36,050 nucleotides of DNA, from the NCBI GenBank assembly GCA_964484315.1, contig CAZAEF010000002.1, positions 1 through 36,050 of the forward strand. Reading direction: 5' to 3'. Below the pieces are notes generated by a model. It had not been told where the DNA came from. It made no database searches and saw only the letters and a program-made list of their open reading frames with translations. The translations under genes were made by a program, and so were the position numbers. Source of the stretch: an uncultured Candidatus Saccharibacteria bacterium. Lineage in GTDB: Bacteria; Patescibacteriota; Minisyncoccia; Phycocordibacterales; PALSA-1337. Shown in pieces: positions 24,304-29,786 of this stretch (positions are counted from its first letter, which is position 1; each line of letters starts with the position of its first letter).

Positions 24304-24376
24304 GGGCCCTTAGCTCATCTGGTAGAGCACCTCATTTGCAATGAGGGGGTGGCAGGTTCGAGTCCTGTAGGGTCCA
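24304..24376 (+). tRNA. tRNA-Ala (anticodon UGC)
   Basis: 73-nt cloverleaf folded by hand. Acceptor GGGCCCT/AGGGTCC with the G3:U70 Ala identity pair. D stem GCTC/GAGC. Anticodon stem CCTCA/TGAGG with loop TT-TGC-AA. T stem GCAGG/CCTGT with loop TTCGAGT. Discriminator A. CCA is not encoded. Confidence 0.92.
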
Positions 24377-24381
24377 CCGGC

Positions 24382-24418
24382 AAAAGAAAAGGCGTCACGA
24401 AGTGATGCTTTTTCTTTT
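24382..24418 (+). terminator. Long hairpin terminator directly after tRNA-Ala
   Basis: AAAAGAAAAGGCGTCAC / GTGATGCTTTTTCTTTT, about 17 bp including two G:U pairs, with a T-rich 3' arm. Confidence 0.6.
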
Positions 24419-24420
24419 GT

Positions 24421-24511
24421 CCGGAGGGAGGCGGCGGGACTCGAAAGACGGAGGCGACTTAGGTCGCCGAGTCAGGGTCGGGAACCGCTTCAGCAGAAGC
24501 GGATTCCTGAC
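24421..24511 (+). other. GC-rich triple-hairpin element abutting a second copy of the tRNA 3' end
   Basis: 60 of 91 nt are G/C by my count. Perfect hairpins GGCGAC-TTAG-GTCGCC (24453-24468) and CCGCTTC-AGCA-GAAGCGG (24485-24502), the latter enclosed by GTCAGG/CCTGAC (24471-76 / 24507-12). Confidence 0.5.
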
Positions 24512-24530
24512 CGAGTCCTGTAGGGTCCAC
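24512..24530 (+). repeat. A-repeat copy A2: exact 19/19 copy of the tRNA-Ala 3' end (CGAGTCCTGTAGGGTCCAC)
   Basis: Identical to 24359-24377 inside the tRNA. The TT of the T loop is not included, so this is not a functional tRNA arm. Confidence 0.9.
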
Positions 24531-24787
24531 AGACAGTTTCAGCTCTTTATGAAAAAAGTGATAAAATTCTTCAGCCTCCTTTGGTCGAAGATTCAAAAAT
24601 ACAGACAGTCAGCACCAACCATGACAGAGTTGGTCAAGACGCACGGTGACTTTTATTGGTCACTGCATAGGCATAGTGCTGAATAAGCCTTGTCGACATC
24701 TCATACCTCGTTTCAGAAATGAACCGCGGTTTTTTTTTATTTAACTCTATCTTTCTTGAGTACCATCTTCAGATACTCCACTTCCTT

Positions 24788-24810
24788 AACAAACTGGTTC
24801 CAAAATGAAA
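24788..24810 (+). repeat. B-repeat copy B0 (truncated/diverged)
   Basis: AACAAACTGGTTCCAAAATG matches the first 20 nt of the B core at 18/20. Upstream flank AGTACCATCTTCAGA resembles the B3 flank AGTATCATCTTCAAT. Confidence 0.6.
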
Positions 24811-24834
24811 GTTTTTTGTTGACTTAAACGATTC

Positions 24835-24843
24835 TGGTATACT
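24835..24843 (+). promoter_or_regulatory. Extended -10 promoter TGGTATACT for NYN gene 1
   Basis: TGnTATACT ends 9 nt before ATG 24853. Confidence 0.45.
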
Positions 24844-24852
24844 ACAGTCATA

Positions 24853-25362
24853 ATGGAGAATACTAAAGATAAAAATATTGCTTTTATAGATAGTCAAAAT
24901 CTAAATCTAGGTGCGCGGGAACTTGGTTGGAAAATCGACTACAGAAAATTTAGAGTATACTTGCGTGAAAAATATGATGTTGAAAAAGCATACATGTTTA
25001 TTGGTTTTGTCGCTCTGAACCAGAGTCTATATGATAATCTTCAAGAATCTGGTTTCATTCTGAGGTTCAAGCCAACTATTCCTGATTTTGATGGAAAGAT
25101 AAAAGGAAATGTAGATGCTGATATGGTGTTGAGTGCAATGATAGAACGGAATGATTACGATAAGGCAGTTATCGTTTCAAATGACGGTGATTTCTATTCT
25201 TTGGTTGAACATTTATATATAAATAATAAACTAGAGGTAGTTTTAAGTACGAATAGAAAATTTTGCTCGAGTTTACTTGCTCAATCTGCTAAAGAAAAAA
25301 TTCAATACGTCGATGATCTTAGAGAAAAAATAGAGTATACAAAAAAGAAAAGCACCGCTTAA
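24853..25362 (+). CDS. NYN (LabA/DUF88-like, PIN-fold) nuclease domain protein, paralogue 1
   Basis: NIAFIDSQNL, KGNVDADMV and IVSNDGDF correspond to the three acidic motifs of NYN domains. Confidence 0.75.
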   Translation: MENTKDKNIAFIDSQNLNLGARELGWKIDYRKFRVYLREKYDVEKAYMFIGFVALNQSLYDNLQESGFILRFKPTIPDFDGKIKGNVDADMVLSAMIERNDYDKAVIVSNDGDFYSLVEHLYINNKLEVVLSTNRKFCSSLLAQSAKEKIQYVDDLREKIEYTKKKSTA

Positions 25363-25383
25363 GGACGAACCTTAAGAAGTGCT
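25351..25383 (+). terminator. Hairpin overlapping the NYN1 stop codon
   Basis: AGCAC..CTTAAGG-ACGAA-CCTTAAG..GTGCT (7+5 bp), followed by a T/C-rich tract. Confidence 0.45.
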
Positions 25384-25471
25384 TCTCTCTATTGATACAT
25401 CAAAATAATACCATAGGTGTTATAAATAATGCAAGTAGTATTTTTATAGTCGATCTTCTCTCAAAATACCC

Positions 25472-25526
25472 TCAATCTCTCACATTTCTTAGCAAACTGG
25501 TTTCAAAATGCGATACTGAAGTCCAC
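25472..25526 (+). repeat. B-repeat copy B1 (36-nt core at 25491-25526 plus conserved 5' flank)
   Basis: Core AGCAAACTGGTTTCAAAATGCGATACTGAAGTCCAC is identical to B3 and B4. The 55-mer matches B3 at 54/55. Confidence 0.9.
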
Positions 25527-25527
25527 A

Positions 25528-25567
25528 AAAATAGAAAAGTCCGGCTGATGCCGGATTTTTCTATTTT
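25528..25567. terminator. 17-bp A/T-flanked hairpin (bidirectional terminator-like)
   Basis: AAAATAGAAAAGTCCGG-CTGATG-CCGGATTTTTCTATTTT. Confidence 0.6.
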
Positions 25568-25585
25568 CTGAGTCCCTAAAAAGAA

Positions 25586-25603
25586 GAGTCCTGTAGTGTG
25601 CAC
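25586..25603 (+). repeat. A-repeat copy A3 (diverged tRNA 3'-end copy)
   Basis: GAGTCCTGTAGTGTGCAC against GAGTCCTGTAGGGTCCAC, 16/18. Confidence 0.7.
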
Positions 25604-25611
25604 AATTACCC

Positions 25612-25641
25612 TTGACAAATAGCACAAAGCTGTGCTATTTT
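25612..25641 (+). promoter_or_regulatory. Promoter with embedded 9-bp inverted repeat, upstream of the methyltransferase
   Basis: TTGACA-N18-TATTTT. The spacer holds AATAGCACA-AAGC-TGTGCTATT (25618-25639). AAGGA lies 7 nt before GTG 25684. Confidence 0.5.
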
Positions 25642-25683
25642 GTTTTTATATAGTTCCAAAACAATTTAACCAAAGGATCATTT

Positions 25684-26520
25684 GTGCTTATAGCTATTTT
25701 AGGTAGACGTAATTGGCTCGCATATTTCTTATGGAGATGGATCTTTCGAGCTAACGGCTCAAGTTGCACCGAACTCGACCGATATTTTTTCGGCCCGAGC
25801 CACGGATTGAACGATTACGATAGCCTCGCTTTAAATTATAAGAGGTCTAACGTAAAACCTGACAAGGCCTACTCCATTCTGCCTACGGTGCTTGAAATGG
25901 TAGGGGACTGCAAAGGTAAGACCTGTACTGATATTGGCTGCGGTGGAGGTTTCTTTTCACTCGCACTTGCACAGCAAGGCGCATCGCAGGTCTATGGCCT
26001 GGATAATTCACGTGAGCAGCTCACGCTTGCCTTGCAGTTTGCGATCCATCCTGCAATCACATATGTCCTGCGTGATGTTTTCCTCGAAAAACTCATGCCG
26101 ACCGATGTTATTGTTGCTGCATTTGTCACAAATTACGCATCCTCAAAGCCGATCCTGCAGCACTTCTTCCGTCAATTATATGACGGACTGAATGAGGGAG
26201 GAAAAGTAATTCTTGTGATCGATCTTCCGAATAGTAGAGAGCTTAAACGTTTCGGAGCGATAAAAAGAATTCAAGGAGCTGTTCGTGATGAGGCTCCTAT
26301 CGAAATCACACTCTTTAATGAGAGCACACCGATCTGTAATCTGAATGCATTCTATTACACACCAGTAACGATCGAATCGGTTCTACGCGAGGTTGGCTTT
26401 CGTGGAATTAGTTGGCACAAGCCGATCGTTTCTGAGGAAGGGATAACTGCAATAGATGAAAAATTCTGGGAGGGGTACACGGATGATCCAGAGCTCGGCT
26501 ACATCTTGGCTGAAAAATAA
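25684..26520 (+). CDS. Class I SAM-dependent methyltransferase
   Basis: Motif I CTDIGCGGGFFSLALA, GLDNS, then GGKVILVI. GTG start with an AAGGA RBS. Substrate not inferable. Confidence 0.75.
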   Translation: MLIAILGRRNWLAYFLWRWIFRANGSSCTELDRYFFGPSHGLNDYDSLALNYKRSNVKPDKAYSILPTVLEMVGDCKGKTCTDIGCGGGFFSLALAQQGASQVYGLDNSREQLTLALQFAIHPAITYVLRDVFLEKLMPTDVIVAAFVTNYASSKPILQHFFRQLYDGLNEGGKVILVIDLPNSRELKRFGAIKRIQGAVRDEAPIEITLFNESTPICNLNAFYYTPVTIESVLREVGFRGISWHKPIVSEEGITAIDEKFWEGYTDDPELGYILAEK

Positions 26521-26524
26521 CAAA

Positions 26525-26556
26525 AGCGCATCAGCAATGATGCGCTCTTACTTTTA
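26525..26556 (+). terminator. Rho-independent terminator
   Basis: AGCGCATCA-GCAA-TGATGCGCT, a 9-bp stem followed by CTTACTTTT. Confidence 0.6.
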
Positions 26557-26594
26557 TCCTCCCTCAAAATCATTCTTAGTTTCTTACATTCCTT

Positions 26595-26630
26595 AGTAGA
26601 CTGGTTCCAGAAAGATATACTGGAGCCCAC
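26595..26630 (+). repeat. B-repeat copy B2 (diverged, 27/36)
   Basis: AGTAGACTGGTTCCAGAAAGATATACTGGAGCCCAC. Its 3' flank CAAACGGCGAGCATAGAAAATTGACT parallels the B3 flank CAAACGACGAGCGTACACAAATTTGACT. Confidence 0.75.
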
Positions 26631-26650
26631 CAAACGGCGAGCATAGAAAA

Positions 26651-26684
26651 TTGACTACATTATAAGTACATGTTATTGTATAAT
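26651..26684 (+). promoter_or_regulatory. Promoter of cassette 3
   Basis: TTGACT-N17-TATTGT preceded by TGt (extended -10), with an overlapping TATAAT. An AAAGG RBS lies before ATG 26723. Confidence 0.45.
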
Positions 26685-26722
26685 ATAGTTCTTGTTAAAC
26701 AATTCAACAGAGAAAGGTATGC

Positions 26723-27355
26723 ATGTTAAAAACAAATTACACCAGAAATGATGTGGAGAAGTATCTGCAGAATACTTCATATCCACCAAGACTCGCAACA
26801 GTAGCGTTACTCCATCTTGACTGTCGAAATCAGTCGGAAATTGCAAGGAGAATTAGGATAGTACATCAAGGAGTGAACAAAATCATTCAGCAATGCCAGG
26901 AGCTAATTATCTGGCACAAGAGACTCGATCAATTTCGGTCACTGGAAAAACACATCCTTATGGAGAAGCAGGTTACTGAAGTATTTCCTAGTCACTGGGA
27001 GACTACCAGAATCTTAGCTTATGCAAACTGTCATAATCTATATCAATTGATGGGAATTCAGTATGGTTACCTGATTAAATATAGAAATATAGGTCCTGGC
27101 GGAATCATCAGACTCAATTCAGTATTGTCATTCTTGGGATGTCAGACGATCGATCCTAATGATAATGTTCTGCCATCTGAATTAAAGAAGTTCGTTTCTG
27201 CATATTTTTGTACAGTATTCAGACAATCACGACAGACATCGAAAGCATTAGCTGAGGTTTATGAAAAAAACAAGTGGGGATTGGTATTTGTCAGATCACT
27301 TGGGGAAAAGAAATTGTATCCACCACCATGTTTCTTCTTTAAAAACAGCGAATGA
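26723..27355 (+). CDS. Hypothetical DNA-binding protein (N-terminal HTH, central RpoA-CTD-like helix-hairpin-helix)
   Basis: NQSEIARRIRIVHQGVNKIIQQ looks like a sigma-region-4/LuxR-type HTH. TTRILAYANCHNLYQLMG...YRNIGPGGIIRLNSVL resembles the RNA polymerase alpha CTD pattern (R..N.L......V.DL......L..I.N.G.KS..EI). Confidence 0.45.
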   Translation: MLKTNYTRNDVEKYLQNTSYPPRLATVALLHLDCRNQSEIARRIRIVHQGVNKIIQQCQELIIWHKRLDQFRSLEKHILMEKQVTEVFPSHWETTRILAYANCHNLYQLMGIQYGYLIKYRNIGPGGIIRLNSVLSFLGCQTIDPNDNVLPSELKKFVSAYFCTVFRQSRQTSKALAEVYEKNKWGLVFVRSLGEKKLYPPPCFFFKNSE

Positions 27356-27372
27356 AGTTATTGTTTCTAAAA

Positions 27373-27405
27373 AGGTTGTGAGTTTAAATGCTCTCAACCT
27401 TTTTT
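27373..27405 (+). terminator. Rho-independent terminator
   Basis: AAGGTTGTGAG-N8-CTCTCAACCTT followed by TTTTT. Confidence 0.6.
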
Positions 27406-27467
27406 ATATAGTGAATCGCAGGGTGGGGTAATTTACGCCAAAACTTTATCTGCTTTTAGTATCATCT

Positions 27468-27522
27468 TCAATCTCTCGCATTTCTTAGCAAACTGGTTTC
27501 AAAATGCGATACTGAAGTCCAC
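27468..27522 (+). repeat. B-repeat copy B3 (36-nt core at 27487-27522)
   Basis: Core identical to B1 and B4. The flank is conserved with B1. Confidence 0.9.
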
Positions 27523-27544
27523 CAAACGACGAGCGTACACAAAT

Positions 27545-27573
27545 TTGACTTTAATCAGCCCTCGGTATAATAT
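27545..27573 (+). promoter_or_regulatory. Promoter with no ORF downstream (faces the 3' end of the minus-strand NYN gene)
   Basis: TTGACT-N15-TATAAT, or N17-TAATAT. The next plus-strand element is the hairpin at 27595-27631. Confidence 0.4.
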
Positions 27574-27594
27574 ACAGAAGTATTCATACGAAGA

Positions 27595-27631
27595 GGGATC
27601 CGAAAGGTGCTTGTGCCTTAGGAGCCCTTTT
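27595..27631. terminator. Hairpin terminator shared by the short plus-strand unit and the minus-strand NYN gene
   Basis: GGGATCC..AAGG..CCTT..GGAGCCC followed by TTTT on the plus strand. Lies 4 nt beyond the NYN2 stop on the minus strand. Confidence 0.5.
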
Positions 27632-27634
27632 CAT

Positions 27635-28165
27635 TTATAGGGTTTGATTATTGTACTCAATATATGATTTGAGGTTATAGAGATAGTCAAAATATTCAGA
27701 ACCGAATTGCTTATATAGTGAAGATGCAAATTTTTTATTCGGAAATAGGACTTTGGCCAACTTATTCTTCTTTAGAAGATAATCAACAAGCTTTTTATAA
27801 TCGCCATCACCCGACACAAGAATTATTTTATTAAAATCAGGCTCATCAATTAACTTTTTCAATACTTCAAAAACTATATCCGTATCAACATTACCTTTCT
27901 TTCGGCCAATCATTACTGGATTATGCTCTTTGAATATTAAAGTAAAGCCGGCATTCTCAAGATTGGCGTATAATCCACGCTCCTTTTCGGTTGAATAGCC
28001 TAAGAAATAATATGCTGTAGTTATATCATATTTTTCCTTGAGATATATTCTTAATTTTATATGATCAATAGCCCACCCATCATCTTTTGACCCAAAGTAA
28101 AGATTCTGTCCATCGATGAAAGCGATGTTAGTGGTATTTGGAATTGTTGATAGGGATTCATTCAT
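27635..28165 (-). CDS. NYN (LabA/DUF88-like) nuclease domain protein, paralogue 2
   Basis: NIAFIDGQNL, KGNVDTDIV and LVSGDGDY. Collinear similarity to the 24853..25362 product along its full length. Confidence 0.75.
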   Translation of the reverse strand: MNESLSTIPNTTNIAFIDGQNLYFGSKDDGWAIDHIKLRIYLKEKYDITTAYYFLGYSTEKERGLYANLENAGFTLIFKEHNPVMIGRKKGNVDTDIVFEVLKKLIDEPDFNKIILVSGDGDYKKLVDYLLKKNKLAKVLFPNKKFASSLYKQFGSEYFDYLYNLKSYIEYNNQTL

Positions 28166-28171
28166 TGCAGC

Positions 28172-28180
28172 ATCATACCA
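28172..28180 (-). promoter_or_regulatory. Extended -10 promoter TGGTATGAT (minus strand), leaderless configuration
   Basis: The reverse complement of ATCATACCA reads TGGTATGAT and ends 6 nt before the ATG at 28165. Confidence 0.45.
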
Positions 28181-28259
28181 CCGCTTGAATTCAAATATCT
28201 TTTGAATTGTGTATTTCGAGGGGATAACTTGTCAGTACAACCACGTGAGAATTCCTAGT

Positions 28260-28278
28260 CGAGTCCTGTAGGGTCTAC
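28260..28278 (+). repeat. A-repeat copy A4 (18/19 copy of the tRNA-Ala 3' end)
   Basis: CGAGTCCTGTAGGGTCTAC. It also shares ATTCCT-N3 upstream with copy A2, and that segment is absent from the tRNA itself. Confidence 0.85.
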
Positions 28279-28282
28279 AAAC

Positions 28283-28311
28283 TTGACAAATACACCGAAT
28301 ATGTGTATAAT
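28283..28311 (+). promoter_or_regulatory. Consensus sigma70 promoter immediately after A4
   Basis: TTGACA-N17-TATAAT. The spacer contains the inverted repeat ATACAC-N7-GTGTAT. Confidence 0.65.
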
Positions 28312-28437
28312 TGTATAAGGGTTCATTAAGTATCTAGCCTACTTTCCTCGGTAGAGGAAGACAAAGTTGCCATTACTGGGTACGGCGGCAACCGAGCTAG
28401 CATTCTCCCACATCCGTAGGGGTGCAAGAAAGAATGA

Positions 28438-28485
28438 GTATTCCTTATCTTATCGACAATCACGTCGGTGGAAACAAAGGAATAC
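28438..28485 (+). promoter_or_regulatory. Leader hairpin sequestering the putative RBS of the 28487 ORF
   Basis: GTATTCCTT (28438-46) pairs perfectly with AAGGAATAC (28477-85). AAGGA in the 3' arm lies 5 nt before ATG 28487. Confidence 0.45.
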
Positions 28486-28486
28486 T

Positions 28487-29002
28487 ATGCATATCATCAA
28501 ATGGTTCATCAAAAAAGCACAAAAATTAGTTCAAGTTTGCAAAAACTACAAGTCAGACAGGCAGATTGAAAAGTGGTATTTCACTCTTACAGATGAAGAG
28601 TTGCGTCAATGGATTAATCCAGCGACGGACGATCAACTGTCGGAGAAAGAGTATTGCCAGCCGATTGATCTCGAAGAAGAGCTACGCAAATGCGAAGAGC
28701 GTCAAGCGTTGGCTGAAATAGAGATCAGAAAGCGAGACAATGCTGAAGCTCTCAAGCAAGAGGAAGCTGAAAAGGCTCGCTACCAAGAGTTAGTGGATGA
28801 ATGGCCGTGCCAGGACTGTGGGGAATTTGGTTCCAAGTGCACCTGCACTCCGGACGAAGACGACCACGAGCTTGAAGTTCCACAAATGGGACTGCCTGGC
28901 CACGAGGAGGAAGAAATTCCTTTGTGGCTCGAGCATGCCAACGAAGAATGTCCGAACTGCGGACTTCTGCCAGAGTTCTGTCAGTGTCAGTACGAAGAGT
29001 AG
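28487..29002 (+). CDS. Acidic protein with duplicated CxxCG-x5-CxC knuckle motifs
   Basis: 172 aa from ATG 28487. CQDCGEFGSKCTC and CPNCGLLPEFCQC are embedded in Glu/Asp-rich sequence, after a central charged helical segment. The track start (TTG 28367) lies in the structured leader and is less likely. Confidence 0.5.
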   Translation: MHIIKWFIKKAQKLVQVCKNYKSDRQIEKWYFTLTDEELRQWINPATDDQLSEKEYCQPIDLEEELRKCEERQALAEIEIRKRDNAEALKQEEAEKARYQELVDEWPCQDCGEFGSKCTCTPDEDDHELEVPQMGLPGHEEEEIPLWLEHANEECPNCGLLPEFCQCQYEE

Positions 29003-29021
29003 AGGGTGTTACAACCCAAAG

Positions 29022-29059
29022 ACCCGCTTAGCAACGAAAGTTGTGGCGGGTTTTCTTCT
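29022..29059 (+). terminator. Rho-independent terminator
   Basis: ACCCGC..CAAC-GAAA-GTTG..GCGGGT followed by TTTTCTTCTT. Confidence 0.6.
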
Positions 29060-29070
29060 TGAAGATGATG

Positions 29071-29076
29071 TATAAT
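29071..29076 (+). promoter_or_regulatory. -10 element TATAAT, leaderless configuration, for the HAD gene
   Basis: TATAAT ends 6 nt before ATG 29083. Preceded by TG. Confidence 0.4.
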
Positions 29077-29082
29077 TTCCGT

Positions 29083-29703
29083 ATGAAGAATATTATTTTT
29101 GATTGGTCTGGCGTAGTCCGAGACACAGTGACGAACCAAATGTGGATTGTTAATCACATATTTAAAAAATATGAAGTAGGGGAGATATCCACGGAAGAAT
29201 TCAGGGAAAATTGGACACAGCCACCCGCTCTTTTTTATCAAAAATATTTACCCGAAGGTTATGACGAAGCGGAACGGTCAAAATTGTTTCAGAAATTACA
29301 ATTAGACAAAGACTGTCCAAAAGCAACCTCATTTCCTGAGGTGGTACAACTCATACACAAATGCAAAGAAAAGGGCTATTTTCTTGCCGTCGTAAGTTCT
29401 GATTTTCCCGAGACATTACTTCCTGAAGTAAAGCAATATGGACTAGAAAACGTTTTTAGAGAAATTATTACAGATGCAAATGATAAATTGCCACCAACTC
29501 AGAAAATAATTAAAGAAAACAATTTAAACCTAGAAGATACATTTTTTGTTGGAGATAGTAATCATGAGGTAGATGTAGCCAAAGAGACAGGGATTAAAAG
29601 TGTGGTAGTCACATGGGGTTTCACTAGTGAGAGTAAATTAAGAGCTAGAAATCCAGATTATATGGCTCATAATGCTAAGGAATTGGAAGGTGTTATTTTA
29701 TAG
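29083..29703 (+). CDS. HAD-superfamily hydrolase (phosphoglycolate-phosphatase-like)
   Basis: Motif I IIFDWSGVV (nucleophile Asp present, Asp+2 replaced by Ser), motif II AVVSS and motif IV VGDSNHEVD. Confidence 0.7.
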   Translation: MKNIIFDWSGVVRDTVTNQMWIVNHIFKKYEVGEISTEEFRENWTQPPALFYQKYLPEGYDEAERSKLFQKLQLDKDCPKATSFPEVVQLIHKCKEKGYFLAVVSSDFPETLLPEVKQYGLENVFREIITDANDKLPPTQKIIKENNLNLEDTFFVGDSNHEVDVAKETGIKSVVVTWGFTSESKLRARNPDYMAHNAKELEGVIL

Positions 29704-29743
29704 AGTCTTCCTTCAGTATTATCTTTAAGTATTCTGTCTCTCT

Positions 29744-29779
29744 AGCAAACTGGTTTCAAAATGCGATACTGAAGTCCAC
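29744..29779 (+). repeat. B-repeat copy B4 (36-nt core)
   Basis: Identical to the B1 and B3 cores. Starts 41 nt after the HAD stop. Confidence 0.9.
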
Positions 29780-29786
29780 AAAAAAT

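What the first reader, a model, noticed from the sequence alone, without database searches (positions are those of the whole stretch)
24788..29779. B junction repeat: 36-nt core identical in three copies, folds into a bulged hairpin, with a compensatory substitution in the diverged copy
The core AGCAAACTGGTTTCAAAATGCGATACTGAAGTCCAC is 36/36 identical at 25491, 27487 and 29744, positions that are 2 to 4 kb apart. B1 and B3 also share 18 of 19 nt of 5' flank (54/55 overall).

The core folds as follows:
- 5' arm TGGTTTCA
- an 11-nt loop
- 3' arm TGAAG(T)CCA, with one extrahelical T

In the diverged copy B2 (26595-26630), the arm change T to C is matched by A to G on the opposite arm. The pairing is kept, while the bulged base itself changes from T to C.

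A hairpin with an extrahelical base at cassette boundaries is reminiscent of folded attC sites, although the integron core motifs are absent.

The distance from the repeat to the downstream -35 element varies: 7 nt in one copy, about 23-24 nt in two copies and about 85 nt in another. That variation argues against a simple activator-site role.
Basis: seen in the sequence. Interest (0 to 1): 0.65.

Follow-up and report, generated by a model that had tools for sequence, protein, structure and literature searches.

The report
Serine-integrase tail scars beside tRNA-Ala
The repeat is not a folded hairpin site: it is five leftover copies of the last ~28 codons of a serine integrase gene, most likely one left at the far end of each mobile element that inserted into the neighbouring alanine tRNA gene.

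Summary
The repeat is real: 36/36 identity at 25491, 27487 and 29744, a diverged copy at 26595 and a fifth degenerate copy at 24746-24826. The conserved unit is about 81 nt.

The hairpin reading fails:
- ssDNA energy is -0.9 kcal/mol, no better than shuffles.
- In 50 homologous copies the "compensatory" pair is unpaired about half the time.
- There is no covariation.

The minus strand instead carries a strong coding signature, reading VD....FWNQFA.EC..L..IL. This peptide is the native C-terminal tail of a large family of large serine recombinases from ultra-small (CPR-type) bacteria.

In that family the attP crossover (GTGGAC, codons Val-Asp) lies inside the integrase gene. Integrated copies swap the tail at exactly those codons for about 20 residues encoded by tRNA-Ala read backwards.

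B is therefore the displaced tail, the P-arm of attR, left downstream of tRNA-Ala by integration events. Supporting facts:
- Relatives always carry it 0.3-1.2 kb after tRNA-Ala, in the same orientation.
- It is followed by what is the native tRNA flank in other genomes.
- A shared GAACC motif sits 5 bp further out in B than in the tRNA, as expected for attP versus attB half-sites.

This genome has no recombinase left, so the copies are scars. How the integrase-less, promoter-bearing cassettes accumulated is unresolved.

The parts
24304..24378 (+). tRNA-Ala(TGC). Its 3' end ...GGGTCCACC is the attB B-arm and the anchor of the whole array.
   Evidence: ARAGORN and Rfam, 63.9 bits. Read backwards it encodes VDPTGLEPATPSLQMR..., identical to the tails of integrated-form recombinases.
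24746..24826 (-). B0, a degenerate copy of the integrase-tail scar. The minus strand reads ..NKKLSFWNQFVKEVEYLKMVLKKDRVK*. The core has decayed to GTTGAC and there is no start codon.
   Evidence: Model R1, 75 bits; six-frame peptide profile, E 8e-14.
25450..25529 (-). B1, an integrase-tail scar. The 36-nt identical block is 25491-25526. The Trp codon is TGA (+ strand TCA at 25503-25505), and there is a 1-nt deletion further on.
25528..25567 (.). Terminator-like hairpin directly after B1. It has the same layout as the terminator directly after the tRNA (24381-24419) and is probably a displaced native tRNA flank.
   Evidence: Inverted repeat I10, 18 nt at 94%; weak local similarity to the tRNA flank.
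26553..26633 (-). B2, the diverged scar. Its frame is intact: VGSSISFWNQSTKECKKLRMILREDKSKS...
   Evidence: Model R1, 89 bits; peptide profile, E 2e-15.
27445..27525 (-). B3, a scar whose 36-nt block is 27487-27522. It reads VDFSIAF*NQFAKKCERLKMILKADKVLA*.
29702..29782 (-). B4, a scar whose 36-nt block is 29744-29779. It has the same first 12 codons including TGA, but the distal half has diverged.
24827..25449 (+). Cassette 1: promoter-like site plus an NYN-domain gene (24853-25362).
   Evidence: Pfam PF01936, E 2e-16. NYN-plus-B units also occur in G031 and G028.
25604..26552 (+). Cassette 2: a class I SAM-methyltransferase gene (25684-26520) with its terminator.
   Evidence: Pfam methyltransferase families.
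26634..27444 (+). Cassette 3: a 210-aa gene (26723-27355) with its terminator. The same cassette, 79% identical over 761 nt, sits between two B copies of another type in genome G017.
   Evidence: blastn: window 26651-27410 against L060 2756-3515.
27526..29701 (.). Segment 4: a reverse NYN paralogue (27635-28165, minus strand), tRNA-end copy A3, a 211-aa gene, and a HAD hydrolase (29041-29703).
   Evidence: Pfam; repeat families D4 and D5.

Best explanation
Each B copy is the displaced 3'-terminal coding segment of a large serine recombinase (LSR, serine integrase) gene. Equivalently, it is the P half-site of that integrase's attP, now forming attR.

How it works:
- In this integrase family the crossover core GTGGAC (codons Val-Asp) lies about 28 codons before the stop codon of the integrase gene itself.
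- The matching attB is the 3' end of tRNA-Ala (...GTCCAC[C]).
- Integration leaves the integrase body next to the tRNA, where it now reads into the tRNA and gains a tRNA-encoded tail.
- Integration carries the native tail (VD....FWNQFA.EC..L..IL...*) to the far end of the inserted DNA.
- Repeated insertion at the same tRNA pushes older inserts outward. This gives gene-B-gene-B arrays.

In this genome the integrase bodies are gone and no recombinase remains. The five copies are therefore inert scars between surviving cargo genes.

Shown: the homology of B to the integrase tails; the switch point at VD; the linkage to tRNA-Ala; the flank exchange between genomes.
Inferred: the actual strand exchange, the order of events, and how the integrase genes were lost (or whether the cassettes never had one).
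For: 1. Coding signature on the minus strand, in the frame starting at GTGGAC.
- Over codons 13-24, in 42 unique copies, the synonymous fraction of differing codons is 0.282. The column-shuffle null is 0.096 +/- 0.024, and 0 of 500 shuffles reach the observed value.
- Mean BLOSUM score is 0.87 against -0.83.
- All five other frames are worse.
- There are no indels over 22 codons in 46 copies.

2. A profile of the peptide searched against 1.8 billion proteins finds it as the C-terminal ~30 residues of longer ORFs.

3. Those ORFs belong to a family of more than 1,459 proteins carrying PF00239 + PF07508 (+ PF13408), 490-570 aa long.

4. Of 132 family members examined, 67 end in VDPTGLEPATPSLQMRCSTR-type tails, which is tRNA-Ala read backwards and identical to the window's own tRNA. 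At least 14 end in the native VD..FWN.F..E..L..IL tail. The two forms diverge exactly at VD.

5. hhalign of B peptides (A4) against recombinase C-termini (A8) gives probability 98.7% and E 4e-16, aligned from VD onward.

6. Position relative to tRNA-Ala.
- In all six genus loci that contain a tRNA, and in three other families, B lies 0.3-1.2 kb downstream of tRNA-Ala in the same orientation.
- Metagenome copies lie next to tRNA-Ala with TGC, GGC or CGC anticodons.

7. Flank exchange between genomes.
- The sequence after B in G014 is homologous (38/47) to the sequence directly after the tRNA in the window.
- The sequence after B in G003 matches (30/31) the sequence after the tRNA in G014.

8. 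In a relative with the same uvrA-uvrC-ddl-tRNA-Ala synteny (L104), a recombinase gene reads into the tRNA and a B tail lies 2.3 kb away.

9. The motif GAACC lies 12 nt beyond GTGGAC in the tRNA and 17 nt beyond it in B. This is the 5-bp shift of the zinc-ribbon-domain motif between attB and attP half-sites described for serine integrases (PMC3783163).

10. Scar-like decay in the window: TGA at the Trp codon in three copies, a frameshift in B1, a lost core in B0.
Against: - No integrase body or recognisable remnant lies next to the tRNA or to any B copy in the window, and no LSR is found anywhere in the genome. Five separate losses would be needed, or else the cassettes never carried one.
- Promoter-like TTGACA boxes start only 4-24 nt after the core in several copies here and in the metagenome array L083. 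This looks more like discrete cassettes than like randomly deleted elements.
- Serine integrases are not expected to use an occupied site (attL) again, yet arrays exist.
- The 36-nt block is 100% identical in three copies while their distal halves differ strongly. This needs gene conversion or a shared functional constraint.
- No recombination was observed directly. Public runs are DNA only, and their contigs break at the repeat.
Confidence: 0.85

Rival explanations
1. The junctions are still working sites. On this reading, B (the P arm) plus about 25 nt to its right (a P' arm) forms a complete attP-like site at the end of small, promoter-bearing cassettes that have no integrase. Serine integrases supplied in trans would capture these cassettes at the tRNA-Ala end. 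That would make the array an integron analogue run by a serine recombinase.
For: - Cassettes begin a few nt after the core with their own promoter-like boxes, both in the window and in the metagenome array L083 (three copies in 2.4 kb).
- G014 carries a 685-nt insert (one small gene plus B) between the tRNA and its native flank, with no integrase.
- The same 210-aa cassette occurs in two genomes, bounded by B copies of each genome's own type.
- B2 and B3 share about 16-20 nt beyond the core (CAAACGRCGAGCRTA) (family D2).
- 23 of 41 genomes of the genus carry LSR genes elsewhere.
Against: - No LSR is present in this genome.
- Three of the five copies carry a stop codon and one has lost the core. 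Neither would matter for a DNA site, but nothing shows activity either.
- No circular or alternative junctions are seen in the public runs.
- Dyad symmetry between the P and P' sides is weak and was not tested statistically.
- Within-genome homogeneity of B could simply be gene conversion.
Confidence: 0.2
2. B is a free-standing small gene encoding a 27-38-aa amphipathic peptide. Each cassette would carry it convergently, for example as an antitoxin-like or regulatory peptide.
For: - The coding signature is strong, and the frame is intact in nearly all copies outside this window.
- In some loci it is followed, in the same direction, by small HTH or PemK-like genes.
Against: - The 'start' is an almost invariant GTG with no ribosome-binding site. 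It often lies directly after a terminator hairpin, with no room for a promoter.
- The peptide is contiguous with the recombinase body in full-length family members.
- Three window copies carry a nonsense codon.
- No Pfam or NCBIfam family matches it.
Confidence: 0.05
3. This is the first reader's model: a folded single-strand hairpin with an extrahelical base, acting like an integron attC site or as an RNA processing or termination signal.
For: - An 8-bp bulged stem can be drawn.
- B2 alone folds at -5 kcal/mol (z = -2.5).
- The element sits at cassette boundaries.
Against: - There is no covariation, and the inner pairs are unpaired in about half of 50 copies.
- The identical core folds no better than shuffles.
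- Relatives' copies do not fold into the same hairpin.
- No tyrosine recombinase is found in the genome.
- There is no Rfam match.
- B lies sometimes before and sometimes after the upstream gene's terminator, which is inconsistent with an RNA role.
Confidence: 0.03
4. B is a binding site (UP element or operator) that controls the promoter immediately downstream.
For: Promoter-like -35 boxes follow the core at 4-24 nt in many copies.
Against: - The distance ranges from 4 to about 85 nt.
- In many relatives B is followed by a terminator, a tRNA or a convergent gene instead.
- The codon-periodic conservation pattern is not what a protein-binding site gives.
Confidence: 0.04

Closest known systems
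Large serine recombinase (serine integrase) attachment sites, attP x attB -> attL + attR, as in A118/LI, Bxb1 and phiC31 (PMC3783163)
   Same: - The enzyme family matches: PF00239 + PF07508 + zinc ribbon.
- There is a short common core.
- The half-sites are about 23 nt (B arm) and 28 nt (P arm).
- A shared distal motif lies 5 bp closer to the centre in attB than in attP.
   Different: - The target is the 3' end of a tRNA gene, whereas the characterised serine integrases cited here use protein-coding genes (this contrast is from my own knowledge).
- attP lies inside the integrase's own coding sequence, so the P arm is also the last ~28 codons.
- Several scars are stacked at one site, although an occupied site should not be a substrate.
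SSV-type 'suicidal' tyrosine integrases of archaea, where attP lies inside the int ORF and integration into a tRNA gene splits int into Int(N) and Int(C) (PMC7253208, PMC8371274)
   Same: - The recombination site is translated as part of the integrase.
- Integration into a tRNA gene separates the gene into two parts that mark the two ends of the element.
- Tandem integration can create hybrid genes, as in locus L104.
   Different: - This is a serine, not a tyrosine, recombinase, and the host is bacterial (CPR-type), not archaeal.
- The split is close to the C-terminus, so the integrated gene keeps all of its recognised domains and only exchanges its tail.
Integration-dependent immunity of mycobacteriophage BPs and relatives, where attP lies inside the repressor gene (PMC4557955)
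   Same: The attP site lies inside a gene that matters for the integrated/free decision, so the product of that gene depends on whether the element is integrated.
   Different: - There the affected gene is the repressor and the enzyme is a tyrosine integrase.
- That the gene's 3' end is replaced on integration into a tRNA gene, and that this has functional consequences, is from my own knowledge; I saw only the start of that abstract. Here any functional effect of the tail exchange is untested.
Integron attC sites and cassette arrays
   Same: A repeated element sits at the 3' end of each acquired gene, and the array grows from one anchor site.
   Different: - There is no IntI.
- There is no conserved folded structure.
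- There are no R/L boxes.
- The cassettes carry their own promoter-like sites.
- The repeat is a coding remnant.
Genomic-island accretion at tRNA genes with displaced tRNA 3' fragments (Islander-type islands, PMC4383910)
   Same: - The array is anchored on a tRNA gene.
- The A repeats in the same array (24512-24530, 25586-25603, 28261-28278) are classic displaced 19-nt tRNA ends.
   Different: B shares only 7-9 nt with the tRNA. Its conservation comes from the integrase gene, not from the tRNA.

Membership tests
Integron attC site | An IntI-type tyrosine recombinase next to the array or elsewhere in the genome | tested here: not met
   PF00589 search of the whole genome gave 0 matches, while all 14 control genomes were positive. 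Neighbouring genes are uvrC, ddl and cargo genes.
Integron attC site | An imperfect palindrome whose stem and extrahelical bases are conserved across copies | tested here: not met
   Pair counts on 25 + 25 copies show no covariation, and the inner pairs are unpaired in about half. Folding energy is no better than shuffles.
Integron attC site | R''/R' core motifs (RYYYAAC ... GTTRRRY) at the boundaries | tested here: not met
   All copies end ...[GA]AGTCCAC, and no GTTRRRY lies at the boundary (alignments).
Large-serine-recombinase attachment site (P arm / attR) | The site is physically part of, or adjacent to, an LSR gene in the free (attP) form | tested here: met
   Full-length family members (517-527 aa, PF00239 + PF07508) end in the B peptide. 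hhalign gives E 4e-16.
Large-serine-recombinase attachment site (P arm / attR) | A short common core shared with the attB, at which the attL and attR forms switch | tested here: met
   GTGGAC(C) is shared by B and the tRNA-Ala 3' end. The protein tails diverge exactly at VD.
Large-serine-recombinase attachment site (P arm / attR) | The distal (zinc-ribbon-domain) motif lies 5 bp closer to the centre in attB than in attP | tested here: met
   GAACC lies 12 nt after GTGGAC in the tRNA and 17 nt after it in B, invariant in 46 copies. The rule is taken from PMC3783163. That this motif is actually the one recognised is inferred.
Large-serine-recombinase attachment site (P arm / attR) | A cognate recombinase present in cis, i.e. 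an element that is still mobile | tested here: not met
   No LSR is found in the window or in the genome (Pfam of window ORFs). The copies are therefore scars, or depend on an enzyme supplied in trans.
Large-serine-recombinase attachment site (P arm / attR) | Demonstrated recombination of the sites | not testable with these tools
   Only DNA runs are available, stored as contigs that break at the repeat, and no informative junctions were seen.
SSV-type 'suicidal' integrase partition | attP lies inside the integrase ORF, so integration splits the gene | tested here: met
   The recombinase family shows two C-terminal forms that switch at the core. L104 and L072 carry the gene body at the tRNA and the tail at a distance.
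SSV-type 'suicidal' integrase partition | A tyrosine recombinase of the SSV family | tested here: not met
   The domains are Resolvase/Recombinase, i.e. a serine recombinase.
Free-standing small protein gene | Its own start codon with a ribosome-binding site and promoter, and an intact frame | tested here: not met
   The GTG has no Shine-Dalgarno sequence and often lies directly after a terminator. Only 1 of the 5 window copies (B2) has both an unbroken frame and a start codon; B0's frame is unbroken but lacks a start.

The most novel reading that the evidence does not exclude
The tRNA-Ala locus is a working gene-capture platform: an integron analogue run by a serine integrase.
- The tRNA 3' end plays the role of attI.
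- The ~50-bp junctions (the B P-arm plus the first ~25 nt of the next cassette) play the role of attC.
- Small promoter-bearing cassettes lacking an integrase are inserted and shuffled in trans by recombinases of this family.
- Exchange of the integrase's C-terminal tail on integration acts as a built-in sensor of the integrated state.
Probability: 0.2. Interest if true: 0.85.

Novelty: new variant of a known kind. Interest (0 to 1): 0.55.

Why it matters
**What it settles.** The work replaces an attractive but wrong structural reading with a concrete, testable one. It also gives a warning for genome scans: short intergenic repeats with apparent compensatory changes can be coding remnants of a gene that is no longer there.

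**What it exposes.** The repeat points to a large family of serine integrases (more than 1,400 members) in ultra-small bacteria. Three things about this family stand out:
- They target tRNA-Ala.
- They carry attP inside their own 3' coding end.
- On integration they swap a ~28-residue native tail for a ~20-residue tail encoded by the tRNA.

I found no description of this arrangement for serine integrases in the held literature.

**What follows if the arrangement is general.**
- It is a bacterial, serine-type counterpart of the archaeal "suicidal" integrases.
- It offers a possible route to integration-state-dependent control of an integrase.
- It supplies predicted attP/attB pairs for a new set of serine integrases, which are of interest as genome-engineering tools.
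- It explains how a variable island of defence-like genes (NYN, methyltransferase, PemK, AAA ATPase) builds up next to one tRNA in genomes of only 0.6 Mb.

Tried and rejected
- **Hairpin / attC reading.** Rejected on folding energy and pair counts.
- **Known RNA family.** Rfam finds only the tRNA.
- **Integron.** No tyrosine recombinase in the genome.
- **Diversity-generating retroelement.** The differences between copies are not adenine-specific, and no reverse transcriptase is nearby (read).
- **3' UTR element or terminator.** B lies sometimes before and sometimes after the upstream gene's terminator. It has no T-run of its own.
- **Free-standing small gene.** This was my working idea for a while. 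I dropped it when the profile search showed the peptide is the C-terminus of longer proteins.
- **Relic of the tRNA's own 3' half.** Considered because of GGTTC...GTCCAC. The 5-nt spacing difference and the coding signature fit an attP arm better.
- **Pfam on the 271-aa ORF of L072.** It gave nothing at E <= 0.01. Its homologues identified it as a recombinase.

Searches that led nowhere:
- The class-level six-frame search with the peptide profile found nothing credible outside the order.
- My genome-contig scan was wasted on a pattern with one N too many; its two hits are chance.
- No RNA runs hold the region.
- Contigs of the four DNA runs break at the repeat. They show one 'joint' that is most likely another organism's tRNA, with sides of only 27-30 nt.
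- Literature searches found no description of this system.

Full report
**1. The observation**

The 36-mer AGCAAACTGGTTTCAAAATGCGATACTGAAGTCCAC occurs exactly three times, at 25491, 27487 and 29744, all on the + strand. None of 100 shuffles gave a match.

Repeat finding and alignment show that the conserved unit is longer, about 81 nt, and has five members:
- 24746-24826, with a decayed 3' end
- 25450-25529
- 26553-26633, the diverged copy
- 27445-27525
- 29702-29782

The window is contig 2 of a 0.64 Mb, 45-contig genome. The element occurs nowhere else in that genome.

The array starts at a tRNA-Ala(TGC) gene at 24304-24378. It is interleaved with small cargo genes:
- two NYN-domain genes
- a methyltransferase
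- a HAD hydrolase
- two unknowns

It is also interleaved with three copies of the last 19 nt of the tRNA.

**2. The hairpin does not hold**

- As single-stranded DNA, the identical 36-mer folds at -0.9 kcal/mol (z = +0.84). The opposite strand folds at -2.0 kcal/mol (z = -0.12). Only the diverged copy folds noticeably (-5 kcal/mol). Copies from relatives adopt other weak folds or none.
- I built a covariance model (R1) and collected 25 copies from whole genomes of the same genus and order. I collected 29 more, 25 of them distinct, from metagenome contigs.
- On these sets the outer pairs never vary.
It is C-G 11 / unpaired 14 in the other.
- Overall pairing (80.5% and 77.4%) is within about 2 points of the shuffled mean (78.7% and 76.4%), and the covariation score is not above shuffles.

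**3. What the conservation is**

Read on the minus strand from GTGGAC, every copy gives a peptide of the form VD....FWN(Q/R)F(A/V).EC..L..IL, followed by a variable end and a stop after 22-39 codons.

The signal is codon-like:
- Arg is written CGC, CGT or CGA, and Gln is written CAG or CAA, at the same position.
- Entropy is highest at third codon positions.
- Over codons 13-24, which were not fixed by my search pattern, the synonymous fraction of differing codons in 42 unique copies is 0.282. The column-shuffle null is 0.096 +/- 0.024 (0 of 500 shuffles reach it).
- Mean BLOSUM score is 0.87 against -0.83.
- All five other frames are worse (first set).
- There is not one indel over 22 codons in 46 copies.

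- The arm T->C is TGA->TGG.
- The opposite-arm A->G is Phe->Ser.
- The 'bulge' change is Asp->Gly.
- The three identical window copies carry a stop at the conserved Trp codon.

**4. Whose coding sequence it is**

The frame has no ribosome-binding site. It usually begins right after a terminator hairpin. A free-standing small gene was therefore doubtful.

A profile of the peptide, searched against 1.8 billion proteins, found 31 hits. In the longer ones the motif is the C-terminal ~30 residues, preceded by ...FGT......K.K.......

The same preceding sequence ends a 271-aa ORF in metagenome locus L072. That ORF runs into the reverse complement of a tRNA-Ala gene. Its homologues carry the domains of large serine recombinases: PF07508, PF00239 and PF13408.

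The family is large. There are 1,459 proteins at E <= 1e-30, 490-570 aa long. The few that carry a source name are called 'recombinase family protein' in Nomurabacteria or Paceibacteria-type genomes.

Their C-termini come in two forms that part exactly at Val-Asp:
- 67 of 132 end in VDPTGLEPATPSLQMRCSTR or close variants.
- At least 14 end in VD..FWN.F..E..L..IL.

The first form is the window's own tRNA-Ala read backwards. The second form is B.

Profile-profile comparison of the B peptides with the recombinase C-termini gives 98.7% probability and E 4e-16, aligned from VD onward.

**5. The resulting model**

In this family attP lies inside the integrase gene, with the crossover in or next to GTGGAC. 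attB is the tRNA-Ala 3' end, ...GTCCAC(C).

Integration produces two junctions:
- attL is the tRNA plus the integrase body, which now carries a tRNA-encoded tail.
- attR is the native tail, which is B, plus the former tRNA flank.

Four independent observations fit this model.

(a) Position.
- In all six genus loci that include a tRNA, and in three other families, B lies 0.3-1.2 kb downstream of tRNA-Ala in the same orientation. The surrounding synteny is uvrA-uvrC-ddl-tRNA-Ala.
- Metagenome copies lie beside tRNA-Ala genes with TGC, GGC or CGC anticodons.

(b) Flank exchange.
- What follows B in G014 is homologous (38/47) to what follows the tRNA directly in the window (24408-24455).
- What follows B in G003 matches (30/31) what follows the tRNA in G014.

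(c) A relative that still has the gene. In L104, at the same syntenic site, a recombinase gene reads into the tRNA. A B tail lies 2.3 kb away, fused in frame to the remnant of an older integrase gene. This is what stacking a second insertion onto a first would produce.

(d) Half-site geometry.
- GAACC lies 12 nt beyond GTGGAC in the tRNA and 17 nt beyond it in B.
- For serine integrases, the zinc-ribbon-domain motif of attB is shifted 5 bp toward the centre relative to attP (PMC3783163).
- That GAACC is the recognised motif is my inference.

**6. What the window copies are now**

The genome has no large serine recombinase and no detectable tyrosine recombinase. The copies show decay: three nonsense codons, one frameshift and one lost core.

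They are best seen as scars. The strong coding signature among copies reflects selection on the integrase genes they came from, not selection on the scars themselves.

**7. What remains open**

- No integrase remnant sits next to any copy here.
- Cassettes begin with promoter-like boxes only a few nt after the core, both in the window and in a three-copy metagenome array.
- G014 has a 685-nt insert without an integrase.
- The 210-aa cassette (26651-27410) is 79% identical to one in G017, yet it is bounded there by that genome's own type of B.
- Within a genome, the ~36-45 nt nearest the core are homogenised, while the rest of the unit differs.

These points could mean repeated loss of integrase genes plus gene conversion. 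They could instead mean integrase-less cassettes carrying attP-like junctions and mobilised in trans. I give the second reading about 0.2. Serine integrases are not expected to reuse an occupied site, so array formation itself needs an explanation.

**8. Comparison with what is known**

- The enzyme and site architecture are those of serine integrases.
- Placing attP inside the integrase ORF and splitting the gene on integration into a tRNA gene is the hallmark of archaeal SSV-type 'suicidal' tyrosine integrases (PMC7253208).
- An attP placed inside a gene, so that the gene's product depends on integration, is known for the repressor of mycobacteriophage BPs (PMC4557955). That the change there is a C-terminal replacement on integration into a tRNA gene is from my own knowledge.
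- I found no description of a serine integrase with this arrangement, or of this family's tRNA-Ala specificity, in the held literature. This is absence in a limited library, not proof of novelty.

**9. Verdict**

- The repeat is real.
- The structural interpretation is wrong.
- The 'recombination junction' intuition is right.
- The finding is a new variant of known kinds (serine-integrase att sites; integrase genes split by their own attP) rather than a new class.

Noticed in passing
window 24512-24530, 25586-25603, 28261-28278: These are three copies of the last 19 nt of tRNA-Ala (the 'A' repeats). Two of them share a non-tRNA 5' flank, ATTCCT(G/A)(A/G)(C/T)C. The same A-type sequence (reading VDPTGLGQ backwards) occurs about 1.85 kb from tRNA-Ala in genome G016 (L118 223-250). 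They look like displaced tRNA ends left by a second, different kind of integrating element, and the serine-integrase model does not explain them.
   Followed up: partly
window 24408-24455 (inside the GC-rich block 24421-24511): The terminator and GC-rich stretch directly after the tRNA are conserved. They match, 38 of 47, the sequence that follows the B copy in genome G014. This is therefore native tRNA flank, not part of an insert.
   Followed up: partly
whole genome (G000): A search of the whole 0.64 Mb assembly (estimated 100% complete) found no PF00589 tyrosine recombinase, so not even a XerC/D-type enzyme. All 14 control genomes were positive. This could be real or a sensitivity limit of the first-look filter.
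   Followed up: no
window 26631-26650 and 27523-27542: B2 and B3 share about 16 of 20 nt beyond the GTCCAC core (CAAACGGCGAGCATAGAAAA / CAAACGACGAGCGTACACAA), followed by TTGAC. There is a weak inverted-repeat relation to the B side (TTTCAAAATGCGATAC versus GTACACAAATTTGAC). This may be a P' half-site, but I did not test it statistically.
   Followed up: no
L104 1574-4674 (a relative with the same synteny): The locus holds two partial serine-integrase genes. One has its N-terminal 125 aa and its last ~80 aa with the native tail but lacks the middle. The other lacks its first ~100 aa and reads into tRNA-Ala. A 198-aa and a 55-aa gene lie between them. It looks like tandem integration followed by deletions.
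   Followed up: partly
L013 2349-2851 (genome G010): Here the B frame runs without a stop into a PemK/MazF-like toxin gene that is itself frameshifted.
   Followed up: no
L089 (metagenome), 8.2 kb between tRNA-Ala and B: The island holds an AAA_21 ATPase (AbiEii-like), a 190-aa partner and a DUF218 gene. Together with the NYN, methyltransferase and PemK genes seen elsewhere, the cargo of these tRNA-Ala islands looks defence-related.
   Followed up: no
window 24853-25362 and 27635-28165: Two NYN-domain paralogues sit in separate cassettes in opposite orientation, with a 40-nt stretch of 73% DNA identity at their 5' ends (repeat family D7).
   Followed up: partly
L080 (metagenome): The order here is tRNA-Ala(CGC), then 770 nt, then B, then 39 nt, then tRNA-Ala(TGC). 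B therefore sits between two alanine tRNA genes with different anticodons.
   Followed up: no
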